Source: Raja brachyura
Lineage: Eukaryota
DNA length: 64,000 nt
Direction of reading: 5' to 3'
Assembly: GCA_963514005.1 (NCBI GenBank)
Contig: OY740818.1
Coordinates: forward strand, 19,220,001-19,284,000
Shown: piece by piece, positions 46,601 to 61,600 of the stretch
How positions within the stretch are numbered: the stretch's first letter is position 1
Layout: each line of letters begins with the position of its first letter
Program-made: the position numbers

Positions 46601-49600
46601 TAATTATACATTGGCTTAATGGAGAGTTTAACTGAAATGGAAAAAAAGATGTGACATAGCAAATAGAGATAGCCAAGTGTTACATTAATTGTATGGACTA
46701 CGTTAGGACTCCTTAGGTATAAACTGAAATATTAATATCTAATTTATTGTGCTCACATAAAGTAAATTACTTTGGTTATTTCTGCAACCTTTTATCTGAT
46801 TTTGAACTTTGCTCTTGCCTTTTAAAACAAAGACCAAAGTTCAAATCCTTATGCACTTGTCAAACATGGAGGTGAAAAAGGCTGTGGTTGGCATGGTTTT
46901 CGTTGCAATGATGAGTAGCCAGGGAGTTTCTTTGGGTAAGAAATACAAATGGAGACTGACAGTGGATTGCAAAGCAGTGATTTGGTTGTGATATTCATAT
47001 CATACTGACCTGAATATCTCCTGGTTTAAAATCTAAGACTTGATAGCCGCCATACAGATTGGATTCATGTCTTTCATGTTTTATGTGTTTGTTATTTGTG
47101 GACATGGATTCAGATTTTGCTGTTGAGTGAGGCTGGCAGACAATGTTGAACTTTAGGACATAAAGGATCGCTGAGTATCCAGTACATTTGCGCAGAGGGT
47201 AAAAAATAAGACAAATGCTTGCTGCATTTGCATGGTATCTTTCAAGTTTCTTTTAGAGGATCCCAGAGCACTTAAATACGCAATGAATTGTGGTGACTGC
47301 TGTGAAGTGCAGGCAAAAGTGACTAGTATAAATGGGGCATCTTGGTTGGCATGGACGAATTAAGCTGCAGGGTCTGTTTTTGTGCTGTATGACTCTAAGT
47401 TAGAGACATTGCAGGCTACCTCGAGCAGCAGAGTGATAAAAACTAGATAATCTATTCTAGAAATGTTCTGAACAACGTGCTCTTTTATATTCTTTAAGTT
47501 TATATGCCTGGAATGCTGTGCAAGCAAGACTTTCCACTGTGCCGTACTGAATCTTATGACAATGAACTTGACCTCATCTGAGAGAGCAGACATGTCATGG
47601 TTTAACATCTCATTAACAAGATAGTTCCTTTAACACAATAGCACCTTTCAGTCATGCAATGATGCGCATGCTCCTGTACCTTCTTCCCAATGGTAGTGGT
47701 AAGAAGAGCGTGTGGCCGGGGTGGTGTGGCTCTTTGATGGTATTAGCTACTCTCTTGAAACAGAGCTTCCTGTCGATCCCTTTGATGGTAAGGTCAGCAC
47801 CTGTGATGCACTGGGCAATATCCAATGTGGCCTCCTTCATCCTTGAAGGTTCAAATTTCCAAACCAGTCAGAATTCTTTCCACCGTATAATTGTAAAAGT
47901 TCGATAAACTTTCAGTGACATGCCGATTCTCCTCAAACTTCGGAGGAGGTAGATCTATGGTAAACATTTTTTTGTGTGATTGTATCAATGTGCTGAGCCA
48001 GTTAAGAGTTTTTGAGTCAAAGTTAAGAAATATGCCAAATTAATCCGGCCAAACTTTTGGGGCTGAGGAAAGAGTTGATATTAAGTCATGACTCTTAAAC
48101 ATCTGCACTACACATGTGTACAATACTGTCATTGGTTCGAACATCATTACGACGTGTTATTTACAAGGCAATTGGGCGTAAATTATTTTGGCTTGTGCGA
48201 GGAAAAGACTATGCTTGATTTTCAGCTTAATGTACTTGAATCTTGTTGTCAGATTGCACAAATCCACGTTTAGGACTGAGACAACCTTCCAGTTTAATGA
48301 AGCGCAATGGATGGGAGGAAATAGAACGACTATCAAAAAGAGATGTGACTATTTGCTGTTTGTTTGTTTCACATAAGCTCCAGATCTGAAGATTGATCAA
48401 GCCCTGGTTATTCTGCATAACACCTTGAGCCAGCATAATGTCAGCATCCTCTACCTGTCTGATTACTGCTACAAGGTAAGAGGATGTTAGTCAATACATT
48501 TGACTATCCACAACATTCACTCTTCTAACAACAATAGCGAAAGGCATAGATAATGGTCTGTGAAGTCCATGTGCACTACATTATGTACTTTAGCTACATT
48601 CTTCCAACTGCTCTTTCTACATTTTACTGTGGTTTGCATATGAATACTGATAATTGAAATGTCTATAAGTTAGGTTGGAAGTGACTTCTCACTTAAATCT
48701 TGCTTACACATCTAAATCAATGAAATTGACTGCCCACTAGTGTCAGTAATCATATATTAGAGGCAAGGTGAAACTGTATTTTATATTCATTCAAAACTGT
48801 AGCTGTCTATTTATGCAACATTAAAATTAAAATTACAGCGCAGAGAGAGCCTCTCGTGTTTGATGGGAGTATCAGTCTAACAAGTTGCTGTTAGTGGATG
48901 ATAGTTACACAATAGGTATATTGTGTGCAAAATCATTCCTGGTTGCTTATGGTAGTGTGGTCTCCAGGCATGATCAGTTGTGCAATAGTGGAGCCACTAT
49001 TTATAGCAGAAACATTTTGCATGGGTGGACCTTATGATCCGCTTCTCCTTGTTGGCTCAGGAAACTAGAAAGGAAAAGTCAGCCTTGCTGGCTGTAGTTG
49101 TCCCATGGCTTGAAGGACTTGTACATGACTTGTCAACATTTATCCCAGAAATAAAAGCTTCATGTGCCTCCATTCATCTCAGGGGTGTTTACAGGATATT
49201 GCTGGCAAACGGCAATCACCTCATTATCCGCAGGGCAAACCTATTGTCCATCAAAGAAGATATTTATTTTCTGAGTCACTGTATTGTGTTTCCACATGAA
49301 ATTCAGTGTGTAAAAACACCAAAATAAGAATGTTGAAAGAATAGCATAATAAAAAGCTACTTTTCTTAATTTTACTTCTTCCAAATTTCAAAAAGACATA
49401 TCAGTAATCCCCAAAAGCATCTGTGGACGGAAATGGTCTGAAGAAGGGTCCGAACCTGAAATATGATTTATCCATTTCCCTCCACAGATGCTGCCTGAAC
49501 TGCTGAGTTCCAGTAGTTGTTAATATGACTGCCTATCTCTGGGATTTCTCCCAGGACAATTTAAAGCCCTTGATTTAAAAAATGATAATTTCTGATCATT

Positions 49601-58600: not shown

Positions 58601-61600
58601 TCACTTGACAGGGTATTGAGAACAATAGTTGAGATGTCATCTGTTAGTGAGTCCACAACTAGATTTTTGTGTGGAATTATTGGAATATTTGTGGAATTAT
58701 TGTGGAATATTAGAACATTTCTTTTCAGATAAAAGAGGAGGAATTAGGTTCTTCTTGGCCAGACTTAAGTCATTAAACCATTCTTGCAGCATGCAACAAT
58801 ATTGAGAGAGCAGGCAGACAAATGTGCTGGAGAAACTCAGCGTGTGCAGCAGCATCTATGGAGCGAAGGAAAAAGGCAACGTTTCGGGCCGAAACCCTTG
58901 GGAGAGCAGGCAGTGGAGGAGAGAAATGGGTGACAACATCTTGCTGTCAATGATAACGAGAGGCTGAAGTGTCATTCTGTTGATCATTGTGGACTCTTGA
59001 ACACCAAGGATAATCAGAATATTCTTCTCTTTTAGTGTCTTTATCAGGTTCTCCTGCATGCAGGTACTCAACAAGGAGATAGCCCGACCAATTCCAGTGC
59101 TGTTGTGAGTGTCCTGTTTCCCCTGACATTCCAGATTGTTATTGGAGATGATCATAACCATTCTGTCATCTGCAGGTAAGAGCAAAGTTACCTTTTGCAA
59201 TGTGGCTATTATTTTTAATGTGTGAAACATCCATGAAGTCCATTCTTATCCAACTTCTTCCAGCCATTCCAACTTTCCCCTGATTTTTCTGCTTGTGTCT
59301 TCCTATAAAATGAATTAGTTTGACTTTATGTTTATCTTTCATAATTTCTACAAAATCGTTTCAACTAATTAAAAAACCTTGGAATAGTAATTCAACTGAT
59401 AAACAGCTGAGTCCAAATAACATGAGGCTGTACCAGAAAATCTTTGGAAGAAGATTGATAATAGATGACTCGTGTAGTTGAGAACCTGAGAGCATTGTAA
59501 CGTGTAAAAGTATCTGCAGTACTGCAAAGATCAACTGTAGTCCAGCTGATACAAATAGACTGCCTGAGCTGGGAAACTGAACCAAGCTGAATTTGTGCAG
59601 TTAAACTTTCCATTTCAACTTCTTGTTGGATATCTGCTGTGACAAGACTTGCTGTCTAACATTTTCTAACTTAGTTTCAGAATTCCAGCATTCATGGTTA
59701 TTTGCATTTCTATTGCAGGGAATATAGCATAGTTTTACTCTGAAACTACGTTACTTTCTGCTCAGATTATTTGCATGGTAAAGCTCCCTTTATTCAATCT
59801 TAATAATGCAGATTTAACGTCAGTGTCAAGCAAGCATCAATATTGCACATGAGACGCCTCTAATTCACACCACAACTTCCTAATGACTCCTAAGGGTGCA
59901 ACTGTTCATTTTCTTAACTGTGGCAATTACGAGCAACGGATTTGCATGCAGTTTATAATGGAAACCTCTTATACAAAACTGTAAAATGATCAGTATTTCA
60001 CCAGCAAGGTTAAGATTAAACACCTTGACCAGAGGTGAAAGGCCAGTGCTGATCTTAGTGGCGCAGGGATTTATGTTCATTACACATTACACAGCGCTGA
60101 ACCATTATTCCCAACATTGTAACATTGTTCACTTATTTCATTCCATTCTCAGTACGATCACTTTATCAAAATGCATTTGTAAAGCTGATAATTTATGAAA
60201 TAAGTTACTAAATACTAAATGGGCAGCACGGTGATGTAGCAGTTGATTTGCTGCCTTACAGCACTTACAGCGCCAGCGACCCGGGTTCGATCCCGACTAC
60301 AGGTGCTGTCTGTACGGAGTTTGTACAGTATGTTCTTCCCCTGATCGCATGGATTTTCTCCGAGAGCTTCAGTTTCCACCCACACTCCAAAGCCGTACAT
60401 ATTTGTAGGTTAATTGGCTTGGTATAAATGTAAATTATCCCTAATGTGTGTAGAATAGTATTAATGTGTGGGGATCGCTGGTTGGTTTAGACTCGCTGGG
60501 CTGAAGGGCCTGTTTCCGCGCTGTATGTCTAAACTGAACTAAATACAGCTGCAATCTGGAGAGGAAAGGAAAATAGCTTTCTCTTTGTAAGGATGTAAAT
60601 CCAAGAGCAGACGGGCCTTCTTTCCAATGATCCACAATTTGATACTTTAGAAATGTTAAGTTTATCCCTGAATTTTGCAAATCGTCAACATTTCCACTAG
60701 AATGCTATTTTTTATGGCACGGGAGACTCCTGATCTGAATGAGCACTTTTAAAGCTTGAATCAGACATGGTGCATATGATTGACAGGGAGGAGGAAAGCT
60801 TTAAACTTTGGGAGGATATAAATGATCTGCGCAGTTGGACAAAAAAGTGGCAAATTAAGTTTTCCCTGAAAAATATGAGGTAATGATGTAAGGACAAGGG
60901 AATATAAAATACATCCGGGGATATTGGGAAGGTTGAAGGAATATAAGTACCTTGGAATATATATACATTGACCTGAATGATGGCGTGACAGGTCTATAGG
61001 ATGTTTATAGAGGGATATGGGATGTTTTCCTTTATTAGTTATGGCGTAGAATGTAGTAGCACAGAGGCAAATGCTAGAATTTCGTACAATACTTGTCAGA
61101 CCACATCTTAGTACTACAATTTTGGTCACCACATTACAGGAAGGATGTTTGAACTGGATAGGGTAAGGGATATTTCCAAGTATGTTGGCCGGACTGAAAA
61201 ATTATAGCTATGGGGAAAGATTGGTTAGGGTGGTAAATTTTTCACTCGAACAGAGAAGCTTGAAGGGTGTATAATATTTTATGAGGCCTAAATAAATAGG
61301 AAAGGCCCTTTTGCAAAGATTTGAAATAGTTGACAGAAGAATTAGAAGGGTAATGGATATAGTTTTATTCCCATCCAGATGGTAGTAGAAATGTGGAACT
61401 CACGAGCTGGATGTGAACTTTCAGTCAATAACTCAAGCACGGGAAGGATGGATAGATTTTTTAAATGATCAGCACCGACACTTCACTGGCAATAAAATGG
61501 TATTTCCTACAAAATAATCTTTCAGCCTCTTGCTGCTCCCACTCAAACAGATTAACTTGACACTTTTGTTTTGGCAAAGTCTGCAAAAGGATTGTGCTTC

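What the first reader, a model, noticed from the sequence alone, without database searches (positions are those of the whole stretch)
46866..59175. HGSNAT-like gene largely missed by the ORF track: likely whole-genome-duplication paralog absent from the human locus
Seen: three in-phase exons encoding a signal peptide plus an HGSNAT-type luminal domain (LKIDQAL..HN, NVS sequon, YCYKCLYQ); exons 2 and 3 appear in no listed ORF in the correct frame. Established: human HGSNAT is at 8p11, NUDT13/ECD are at 10q22, and these regions share paralog pairs (KAT6A/KAT6B, VDAC3/VDAC2, PLAT/PLAU, AP3M2/AP3M1). Inference: this is a second, 2R-derived lysosomal transmembrane acetyltransferase retained in this lineage, possibly with different glycosaminoglycan substrate or tissue use, which is relevant in a cartilage-rich animal.
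Basis: partly seen in the sequence, partly recalled or inferred. Interest (0 to 1): 0.72.

Follow-up and report, generated by a model that had tools for sequence, protein, structure and literature searches.

The report
Second HGSNAT gene in a skate
The window holds the first three coding exons of a real, apparently intact second type of the lysosomal heparan-sulfate acetyltransferase gene HGSNAT, an old vertebrate duplicate kept by sharks, fishes, frogs, lizards, platypus and possum but not seen in placental mammals or birds.

Summary
Three in-phase exons (46866-46935, 48378-48475, 59036-59175) have GTAAGA donors and AG acceptors. They encode a signal-like N-terminus and the start of the HGSNAT luminal beta-sandwich.

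Exon 3 is 100% identical to a 608-aa NCBI protein of Leucoraja erinacea (little skate) named HGSNAT, so the gene is already modelled. Exon 4 onwards lies beyond the window.

This protein is not the orthologue of human HGSNAT. It belongs to a separate clade B (bootstrap 100): skate, catshark, gar, bowfin, teleosts (zebrafish si:dkey-192p21.6), amphibians, squamates, platypus and possum. Clade A holds the canonical fish HGSNATs, and by my reading 35 fish species have both.

Against human HGSNAT in the PDB:
- gar A scores 820 bits
- gar B scores 595 bits
- platypus B scores 583 bits
- skate scores 601 bits

An AU test rejects placing the skate gene with clade A (p 7.7e-10). All five catalytic or substrate residues are kept.

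ECD lies head-to-head upstream.

Not shown: a canonical copy in the skate, a 2R origin, or any cartilage-specific role.

The parts
46866..46935 (+). Coding exon 1 of the clade-B HGSNAT gene: start codon plus a hydrophobic signal-like segment. The NCBI model starts at the in-frame ATG at 46851.
   Evidence: Sequence read; translation; tblastn of P0004 residues 1-31 at 46851-46943, E 7e-11. ATG 46866 has A at -3 and G at +4; ATG 46851 has C at -3 and C at +4. The donor GTAAGA begins at 46936.
46936..48377 (+). Intron 1 (1442 nt, or 1448 nt if the acceptor at 48382-83 is used)
   Evidence: GT at 46936-37; a pyrimidine-rich tract, then AG at 48376-77 and a second AG at 48382-83.
48378..48475 (+). 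Coding exon 2: first strands of the luminal beta-sandwich (LKIDQAL.., NVS sequon, first Cys of CYKC). An alternative in-frame start lies at 48384.
   Evidence: tblastn of P0004 residues 29-59, 100% identity, E 9e-14. It aligns to human HGSNAT from residue 76. The sequon aligns with the human NLT sequon.
48476..59035 (+). Intron 2 (10.56 kb), full of interspersed repeats
   Evidence: GTAAGA at 48476; AG at 59034-35. Repeat families D1-D3 and I1-I5. None of the ORFs >=55 aa scanned in 48-64 kb reached a Pfam cut-off.
59036..59175 (+). Coding exon 3: continuation of the luminal domain (CLYQ...HNHSVIC), ending in phase 2
   Evidence: 100% identical to P0004 residues 60-105. The donor GTAAGA begins at 59176.
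59176..64000 (+). Start of intron 3. Exon 4 and all transmembrane and catalytic exons lie beyond the window.
   Evidence: tblastn of P0004 finds no credible match to residues 106-608 anywhere in the window; the best is E 1.8.
26613..43120 (-). Neighbouring gene ECD (SGT1/ecdysoneless family), head-to-head with the HGSNAT-type gene. Its first coding exon lies about 3.7 kb upstream of the ATG.
   Evidence: 9 minus-strand ORFs match Pfam PF07093 collinearly, from profile positions 1-57 at 42869-43120 to 490-556 at 26613-26888. 7 of the 9 are above the 30-bit cut-off, best 100.7 bits.
11072..11449 (+).
   Evidence: Pfam PF00293, 26.1 bits against a cut-off of 21.1, E 9.2e-6. The translation shows a Nudix box and SQHWPFPSS. 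The atlas search gave only generic Nudix clusters scoring below 0.9.

Best explanation
The window, which I take for little skate (Leucoraja erinacea), holds the 5' end of a vertebrate paralogue of HGSNAT. I call it clade B; it is the group of zebrafish si:dkey-192p21.6 and of the tetrapod 'HGSNAT-like' genes.

Shown:
- The three exons encode residues 1-105 of a 608-aa protein already modelled by NCBI. These residues are a short signal-like N-terminus and about the first 75 residues of the luminal beta-sandwich domain. The remaining strands, TM1, the ten-helix catalytic membrane domain and the catalytic histidine are encoded downstream of the window.
- The protein is a full-length, HGSNAT-fold family member with the catalytic dyad, the oxyanion asparagine and both glucosamine-binding residues intact.
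- It belongs to a clade that split from the canonical HGSNAT clade before cartilaginous and bony fishes diverged.
- It sits head-to-head with ECD.

Inferred:
- It works like HGSNAT. A dimeric multi-pass membrane enzyme lets cytosolic acetyl-CoA reach a luminal active site through a pore. There His244, polarised by Asp254, deprotonates the amine of a terminal alpha-glucosamine, which attacks the acetyl group stabilised by Asn233. The beta-sandwich positions the glycan chain.
- The duplicate arose in the early vertebrate genome duplications. I put this at about 0.6.
- It was later lost in placental mammals and probably in birds.

Its substrate, compartment and tissue use are unknown.
For: Identity:
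- Exon 3 is 100% identical to P0004, named 'heparan-alpha-glucosaminide N-acetyltransferase [Leucoraja erinacea]'.
- The three exons map to P0004 residues 1-105.

Family:
- P0004 aligns end to end with human HGSNAT (8vkj): 601 bits, E 1.7e-179, residues 29-608 against 76-663.
- Pfam HGSNAT_cat scores 22.8 bits against a cut-off of 22.
- An AlphaFold2 model (mean pLDDT 69.7, pTM 0.65; luminal domain pLDDT about 80-92 with 8 strands) has as its 15 best PDB matches only human HGSNAT chains, with TM 0.68-0.71 by query length and 0.76-0.83 by target length.

Active site:
- Passages of PMC11199644 name N286, H297, D307, R372 and E499.
- By the alignment these are skate N233, H244, D254, R319 and E445.
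- In clade B they are kept in 20/21, 21/21, 21/21, 21/21 and 21/21 rows.

Paralogy:
- The best relatives of P0004 are catshark (78%), then gar, bowfin, platypus '-like', newt '-like', Xenopus, 14 amphibians in all, 2 squamates, possum '-like' and teleost si:dkey-192p21.6 proteins at 53-61% identity.
- A second set, found with Pygocentrus HGSNAT, holds gar, bowfin and teleost proteins. By my reading of the two tables, 35 species names occur in both lists, and for the five species I compared the A and B copies lie on contigs of different length.
- Bit scores against human HGSNAT: gar A 820, gar B 595, platypus B 583, skate 601.
- Careful ML tree of 46 rows by 622 columns: clade B (19 rows) 100/99; skate plus catshark sister to tetrapod and ray-finned B, 97/91; clade A (12 rows) 100/99; A plus B 100/99.
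- Forcing skate and catshark into clade A costs 70.1 lnL, p-AU 7.7e-10.

Neighbour: ECD on the opposite strand.
Against: - No clade-A protein of any cartilaginous fish or tetrapod was in my tree. Clade A is represented only by ray-finned fishes and linked to human HGSNAT only by bit scores.
- The 15 outgroup rows are unnamed database representatives, so the root and the date of the duplication relative to cyclostomes and invertebrate chordates are not fixed. One of them, P0130, is a long branch with odd composition and sits as sister to clade A.
- The AU group was named after the tree had been seen.
- The Pfam hit is barely above its cut-off. The structure model has only moderate confidence, and several active-site loops have pLDDT below 50.
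- Everything catalytic lies outside the window and rests on NCBI's computed model, not on transcript evidence that I saw.
- Zebrafish lacking the clade-A gene hgsnat had brain Hgsnat activity below detection and stored heparan sulfate (bioRxiv 10.1101/2023.08.02.550904, passages). So clade B does not supply measurable standard activity in that tissue. This argues against simple redundancy and leaves its real activity open.
- Absence from placental mammals and birds is inferred from a list cut at 120 rows, taken from 8000 pre-filtered candidates.
Confidence: 0.85

Rival explanations
1. The gene is a clade-B paralogue, but it arose by an ordinary segmental or retro-independent gene duplication in an early jawed-vertebrate ancestor, not by the 2R genome duplications.
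For: No tool result here ties the duplication to 2R. The synteny argument (ECD at human 10q22, HGSNAT at 8p11, paralogous blocks) is recalled, not tested. The outgroups in the tree are unnamed, so the duplication is bounded only on its younger side, before the cartilaginous/bony fish split.
Against: In the five species I compared, the A and B copies lie on contigs of different length, so they are not tandem. B sits beside ECD, which by recall maps in the chromosome-10 block that is paralogous to the 8p11 block holding HGSNAT. The node lies where 2R ohnologues are expected: A plus B 100/99, each holding deep gnathostome lineages.
Confidence: 0.25
2. It is the skate's only HGSNAT and the true orthologue of human HGSNAT, merely moved next to ECD.
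For: NCBI names the skate, catshark, Mustelus and Heptranchias proteins without '-like'. I found no other cartilaginous-fish HGSNAT.
Against: The ML tree and AU test place it firmly in clade B. It is closer to platypus '-like' (825 bits) than to human HGSNAT (601 bits). Gar A scores 820 bits against human. It also lacks the long N-terminal extension of clade A. It could still be the only copy in the skate, but it would then be the surviving paralogue, not the orthologue.
Confidence: 0.03
3. The skate copy is a decaying or non-functional remnant, and the three exons are relics.
For: Only 105 of 608 residues are in the window. I saw no expression data. The Pfam score is marginal.
Against: NCBI's model is full length and uninterrupted. 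All five functional residues are intact. All three donors are consensus GTAAGA. The skate branch is short (0.15), and clade B follows the species tree over more than 400 million years, as expected under purifying selection.
Confidence: 0.05

Closest known systems
Human HGSNAT (TMEM76; heparan-alpha-glucosaminide N-acetyltransferase; PDB 8vkj, 8jkv, 8tu9), the enzyme deficient in mucopolysaccharidosis IIIC
   Same: - Same architecture: signal peptide, luminal beta-sandwich, TM1 and a 10-helix catalytic bundle.
- End-to-end alignment of 601 bits.
- Predicted fold TM 0.70/0.79.
- Same His-Asp dyad, Asn, Arg and Glu.
- Same sequon position and CxxC motif in the luminal domain.
   Different: - Only 45-47% identity.
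- It belongs to the other paralogue clade.
- It lacks the roughly 45-75 residue N-terminal extension of clade A.
- The TM1-TM2 cytosolic loop is unrelated in sequence.
- Its genomic neighbour is ECD rather than 8p11-type genes (the latter recalled).
- Its activity, substrate and location are untested.
Zebrafish si:dkey-192p21.6 and the tetrapod 'heparan-alpha-glucosaminide N-acetyltransferase-like' genes (platypus, brushtail possum, Xenopus, newt, gecko)
   Same: Same clade B with support 100/99. They are 56-61% identical to the skate protein over 95-99% of its length. They share the short N-terminus and the SDYCYKCLYQ-type motif.
   Different: Different species only; these are the orthologues. 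None has a published function that my searches could find: 0 papers for 'dkey-192p21.6', 0 for 'HGSNAT-like' or 'hgsnatl', and 0 for HGSNAT with ohnolog.
Canonical fish hgsnat (clade A; e.g. Pygocentrus P0126, gar P0327)
   Same: Same family and the same conserved active-site residues: 12/12 rows at four sites, and 11/12 plus one gap at Asp.
   Different: 48-51% identity to the skate protein. It forms the sister clade. It scores far higher against human HGSNAT: 820 bits against 595 for the two gar copies.

Membership tests
HGSNAT / transmembrane acetyltransferase family (Pfam PF07786) | Pfam HGSNAT_cat domain at or above the gathering score | tested here: met
   P0004 scores 22.8 bits against a cut-off of 22, residues 214-301, which is barely above. 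The domain is encoded outside the window. The two window exons scanned (exons 2 and 3) match no Pfam family.
HGSNAT / transmembrane acetyltransferase family (Pfam PF07786) | Full-length similarity to an experimentally solved HGSNAT | tested here: met
   601 bits, E 1.7e-179, query residues 29-608 against human 76-663.
HGSNAT / transmembrane acetyltransferase family (Pfam PF07786) | Catalytic His-Asp dyad, oxyanion Asn, and GlcN-binding Arg and Glu (human H297, D307, N286, R372, E499; PMC11199644 passages) | tested here: met
   Skate H244, D254, N233, R319 and E445 are all present. In clade B they are kept in 21/21, 21/21, 20/21, 21/21 and 21/21 rows.
HGSNAT / transmembrane acetyltransferase family (Pfam PF07786) | Fold: luminal beta-sandwich, TM1 and a 10-helix bundle | tested here: met
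   The model has pLDDT 69.7 and pTM 0.65, with 8 strands in residues 34-141 and then helices. The 15 best PDB matches are all human HGSNAT, TM 0.68-0.71 / 0.76-0.83. The next match is GWT1 at TM 0.34. Model confidence is moderate.
HGSNAT / transmembrane acetyltransferase family (Pfam PF07786) | [quoted passage not shown] | not testable with these tools
   This needs expression and assay. The only indirect datum is that zebrafish hgsnat (clade A) mutants have no detectable brain activity.
Canonical HGSNAT orthogroup (clade A, orthologue of human HGSNAT) | Groups with canonical HGSNATs in a phylogeny | tested here: not met
   The skate protein falls in clade B (100/99). Holding it with clade A is rejected: delta lnL 70.1, p-AU 7.7e-10.
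Canonical HGSNAT orthogroup (clade A, orthologue of human HGSNAT) | Similarity to human HGSNAT as high as that of other canonical orthologues | tested here: not met
   The skate scores 601 bits against 820 for gar clade A. It resembles gar B (595) and platypus B (583).
Canonical HGSNAT orthogroup (clade A, orthologue of human HGSNAT) | Long N-terminal extension before the luminal domain | tested here: not met
   Full-length clade-A rows carry tens of residues before the hydrophobic segment. The skate and other B rows do not (alignment).
Clade B ('HGSNAT-like', zebrafish si:dkey-192p21.6 group) | Monophyly with the named '-like' / si:dkey-192p21.6 proteins, and a species-tree-like order inside the clade | tested here: met
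   19 rows at 100/99. Cartilaginous fishes are sister to (tetrapods + ray-finned fishes) at 97/91. The result is the same in quick trees of 48 and 40 rows.
2R ohnologue pair | Duplication older than the cartilaginous/bony fish split | tested here: met
   Clade B contains both lineages and is sister to clade A. This depends on rooting by unnamed outgroups.
2R ohnologue pair | Duplication younger than the split from invertebrate chordates | tested here: inconclusive
   The 15 outgroup rows carry no names. P0135 is sister to A plus B and P0130 is sister to A. Both are long branches with deviant composition.
2R ohnologue pair | The two copies lie in matching paralogon blocks | not testable with these tools
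   Only the ECD neighbour and a Nudix exon are shown. The human map positions and paralogue pairs are recalled. No eukaryotic genome collection was available.
2R ohnologue pair | Both copies present in the skate genome | not tested
No cartilaginous-fish clade-A protein appeared in what was listed.

The most novel reading that the evidence does not exclude
Clade B is not a spare HGSNAT but a functionally diverged transmembrane acetyltransferase. It would have a different amino-sugar substrate, pH optimum, compartment or tissue. Most jawed vertebrates, including zebrafish, Xenopus, marsupials and monotremes, would still need it, while placental mammals and birds dispensed with it. Its presence would also modulate or confound non-placental models of Sanfilippo C.
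Probability: 0.3. Interest if true: 0.6.

Novelty: new member of a known kind. Interest (0 to 1): 0.4.

Why it matters
HGSNAT is treated in the papers I looked at as a gene without paralogues.
- The eLife and Nature Communications structure papers and the zebrafish MPS III preprint contain 0 uses of 'paralog' in the text I searched.
- The zebrafish authors excluded gns because it is duplicated, but they treated hgsnat as single.

The data here show that most non-placental jawed vertebrates carry a second, well-conserved copy with an intact active site. This has three consequences:
- Database names hide the paralogy. Sharks and many teleosts have clade B under the canonical name, zebrafish has it as 'uncharacterized', and a pike model carries the name of RET.
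- Zebrafish, frog or marsupial models of MPS IIIC have a second family member to account for. The mild phenotype despite undetectable activity that is reported is worth re-reading in that light.
- It is a clean case of an ancient duplicate lost in placentals.

It is not a new kind of enzyme, and the gene model already exists.

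Tried and rejected
- I hoped the unnamed representative P0127 (578 aa, 55% identical to the skate protein) might be a cartilaginous-fish canonical copy. It scores 720 bits against human HGSNAT, but it nests among percomorph teleost clade-A proteins, so it gave no information on sharks.
- The Nudix exon could not be pinned to NUDT13. The atlas search returned only generic Nudix clusters at 0.84-0.86, below the 0.9 level the tool calls a lead.
- Rfam found nothing in the window.
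- Pfam on 389 stop-to-stop ORFs of at least 55 aa found no further gene between ECD and the HGSNAT-type gene, or inside its introns. There were only sub-threshold hits: RVT_1 16.7 bits at 63199-63600, HTH_32 21 bits at 19772-20023, and a few others well below their cut-offs.
- Literature searches:
  - 'HGSNAT' with 'paralog' gave 19 papers. I saw the listing of 15, and none is about an HGSNAT paralogue by title or abstract start. I did not read them.
  - 'dkey-192p21.6' gave 0 papers.
  - 'HGSNAT-like' and 'hgsnatl' had 0 occurrences in the 15 papers listed; those papers matched only 'N-acetyltransferase-like'.
  - 'HGSNAT' with 'ohnolog' gave 0 papers.
- A cartilage-related role was considered and dropped. 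Nothing in the sequence or in the taxon spread of clade B points to it.
Each exon was handled alone, and whole-protein work used the database's own record P0004.

Full report
**1. The observation.** Reading the sequence confirms three exons on the + strand.
- Exon 1 runs from the ATG at 46866 to 46935. An in-frame ATG lies 15 nt upstream at 46851.
- Exon 2 runs from 48378 to 48475.
- Exon 3 runs from 59036 to 59175.

Each exon is followed by GTAAGA, and exons 2 and 3 are preceded by a pyrimidine-rich tract and AG. The lengths of 70, 98 and 140 nt keep one reading frame. The translations show a hydrophobic N-terminus, LKIDQAL..HN, an NVS sequon and YCYKCLYQ. In a stop-to-stop listing the exons lie in ORFs of 61, 37 and 47 aa, among 313 ORFs of at least 35 aa in 44-64 kb. 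'Missed by the ORF track' therefore only reflects how that track was built.

Exon 3 alone was searched. It found one protein at E <= 10 among 9 candidates: P0004, 608 aa, 'heparan-alpha-glucosaminide N-acetyltransferase [Leucoraja erinacea]', 100% identical over all 46 residues, E 1.8e-21.

A local tblastn of P0004 against the window finds residues 1-31, 29-59 and 60-111 at the three exons (E 7e-11, 9e-14, 4e-24). Nothing credible matches residues 106-608. I take the window for little skate. The gene is already modelled by NCBI, and its exon 4 onwards lies beyond position 64000. All whole-protein work below uses the database record P0004, not a model of my own.

**2. Junction detail.** NCBI's model starts at ATG 46851 and uses the second of two in-frame AGs, giving an exon 2 start at 48384 and the protein ..SL/DLK... 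The catshark orthologue has two residues there, and ATG 46866 has the stronger context (A at -3, G at +4). Both points need transcript data.

**3. What it is.** P0004 aligns end to end with human HGSNAT of the PDB: 8vkj, 601 bits, residues 29-608 against 76-663. Pfam HGSNAT_cat is just above its cut-off, 22.8 against 22 bits.

An AlphaFold2 model built on a 35-sequence alignment has mean pLDDT 69.7 and pTM 0.65. The luminal domain is well predicted, with eight strands in residues 34-141. Its 15 best PDB matches are all human HGSNAT chains, with TM 0.68-0.71 / 0.76-0.83 and 45-47% identity. The next match, GWT1, has TM 0.34.

Passages of PMC11199644 describe:
- a His297-Asp307 dyad;
- Asn286, which stabilises the acetyl carbonyl;
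- Arg372 and Glu499, which bind glucosamine;
- a CBM-like luminal beta-sandwich;
- a pore that lets cytosolic acetyl-CoA reach the luminal active site.

By the alignment these residues are skate His244, Asp254, Asn233, Arg319 and Glu445, and all are present. Across my alignment they are kept as follows:
- clade B: 21/21, 21/21, 20/21, 21/21 and 21/21 rows;
- clade A: 12/12, 11/12 (one gap), 12/12, 12/12 and 12/12 rows;
- unnamed outgroups: 15/15 at every site.

The window's exons encode only the signal-like segment and about the first 75 residues of the beta-sandwich. The catalytic parts are outside it.

**4. Orthologue or paralogue.** The full-length search with P0004 found 1635 proteins at E <= 1e-10 among 8000 scored candidates, with the best 120 listed. 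By name the list holds:
- 4 cartilaginous fishes (skate, catshark at 78%, Mustelus, Heptranchias);
- gar and bowfin;
- 14 amphibians and 2 squamates;
- platypus and brushtail possum (both '-like');
- teleosts, several of them labelled si:dkey-192p21.6;
- 2 rows without a legible taxon.

None of the 120 is a placental mammal, bird, turtle or crocodilian. A placental member would be expected near the platypus and possum scores (825 and 758 bits), well above the list's floor of 699 bits.

The representative search found 7039 hits at E <= 0.001, with 150 listed. It gave P0126 (51% identity), which the third protein search identified as Pygocentrus nattereri HGSNAT. In that search, every one of the 120 best relatives with a legible name is a ray-finned fish, including gar (P0327) and bowfin (P0388); 9 rows are unnamed.

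By my reading, 35 species names occur in both lists. In the five I compared, the two copies sit on contigs of different length (for example bowfin 25.06 against 37.90 Mb, and Colossoma 49.68 against 34.38 Mb).

Bit scores against human HGSNAT:

| Protein | Bits |
|---|---|
| Gar clade A | 820 |
| Gar clade B | 595 |
| Platypus clade B | 583 |
| Skate | 601 |

A mammalian protein that is less like human HGSNAT than a gar protein is cannot be its orthologue.

**5. Phylogeny.** A careful ML tree (IQ-TREE, LG+C20+F+G4) used 46 rows and 622 columns: 12 clade A, 19 clade B and 15 unnamed representatives as outgroups. Two badly modelled rows, Mustelus P0007 and Hemicordylus P0110, were dropped after the 48-row quick tree, where both fell inside clade B. 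The tree gives:
- clade B 100/99;
- skate plus catshark sister to (tetrapod B + ray-finned B), 97/91;
- clade A 100/99;
- A plus B 100/99.

Forcing skate and catshark together with clade A costs 70.1 log-likelihood units, p-AU 7.7e-10. The group was named after the tree had been seen.

Weak points:
- Clade A is represented only by ray-finned fishes.
- The outgroups have no names.
- Two of them are long branches with deviant composition. P0130 is sister to A and rich in G, A, R and P at 0.31. P0135 is sister to A plus B.

The duplication is therefore older than the cartilaginous/bony fish split. Its older bound is not fixed here.

**6. Surroundings.** Pfam on 389 ORFs of at least 55 aa shows ECD on the minus strand. 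Nine ORFs match PF07093 collinearly, from profile positions 490-556 at 26613-26888 to positions 1-57 at 42869-43120, and 7 of the 9 are above the cut-off. ECD is thus head-to-head with the HGSNAT-type gene, about 3.7 kb from its ATG.

One Nudix exon lies on the + strand in ORF 11072-11449 (26.1 bits). Its translation carries [10 protein letters not shown] recall this as the mark of the NADH-pyrophosphatase Nudix subgroup, to which NUDT12 and NUDT13 belong, but NUDT13 identity was not verified.

They fit an ohnologue reading, which I put at about 0.6.

**7. Function.** The most likely mechanism is that of HGSNAT, as given in the best explanation. Whether clade B does the same job is open.

In the zebrafish MPS III preprint (10.1101/2023.08.02.550904; passages only), hgsnat frameshift homozygotes had brain Hgsnat activity below detection in the standard 4MU-glucosaminide assay, and they stored heparan sulfate. 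Yet they had the mildest transcriptional and behavioural changes of the three models. I assume, without having checked, that their hgsnat is the clade-A gene. If so, clade B gives no measurable standard activity in zebrafish brain. That paper does not mention a paralogue (0 occurrences), and neither does the eLife structure paper.

**8. Novelty and verdict.** The gene is real and apparently intact. It is a member of a conserved but uncharacterised vertebrate paralogue clade whose names in databases are inconsistent. My literature searches found nothing about it. Supplements were closed and could hold relevant alignments or ohnologue tables.

Three other parts are not shown: 2R origin, a second copy in this very genome, and a cartilage link.

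Left unchecked:
- the human locus, by rule;
- any cartilaginous-fish clade-A gene;
- synteny in other species.

One unnamed representative that might be human (P0188) was left untouched.

Noticed in passing
window 26613-43120 (-): This is a near-complete ECD (ecdysoneless/SGT1 family) gene. Nine collinear exon-bearing ORFs cover Pfam profile positions 1-556 of 587. Its 5' end lies in the GC-richest part of the window (42-44 kb, GC 0.505). It is divergent from the HGSNAT-type gene.
   Followed up: partly
window 11072-11449 (+): One Nudix-domain exon with a Nudix box and the motif SQHWPFPSS.
   Followed up: partly
window 48376-48384: Two in-frame AG acceptors lie 6 nt apart at the start of exon 2. 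The NCBI skate model uses the downstream one. The catshark protein has two extra residues, as if the upstream one were used. This may be alternative splicing or a modelling choice.
   Followed up: partly
window 49472-51630, 58812-58886, 60264-60327, 62700-62750, 63623-63697: Interspersed repeat families fill introns 2 and 3. There is a near-perfect hairpin element (arms 50832-50907 / 50913-50988, 87%) with related copies at 58812-58886 and 63623-63697. A 64-nt family lies at 49799 and 60264, and a 205-nt family at 44698 and 51426.
   Followed up: no
window 63199-63600 (+): A 134-aa ORF has a weak reverse-transcriptase match (RVT_1, 16.7 bits, below the cut-off). It is probably a LINE fragment in intron 3.
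   Followed up: no
window 61944-62399 (both strands): This stretch has overlapping open frames of 75-133 aa on both strands, rich in G, A, R and P codons, and no Pfam match. It could be a CpG-island-like segment, an alternative first exon or a repeat. It is unexplained.
   Followed up: no
protein lists: Database names hide the paralogy. Clade B is '-like' in tetrapods. It carries the plain HGSNAT name in sharks and many teleosts, is 'uncharacterized protein' in zebrafish, and one Esox lucius model of 601 aa (P0088) is named as a RET isoform. That last name may hint at a RET neighbour in pike.
   Followed up: no
representative P0130 (trees): This unnamed 614-aa family member has a strongly G/A/R/P-rich composition (0.31). 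It sits as a long-branch sister to clade A with support 99/94. If it comes from a jawless vertebrate, it would date the duplication before the cyclostome split. Its taxon is unknown.
   Followed up: partly
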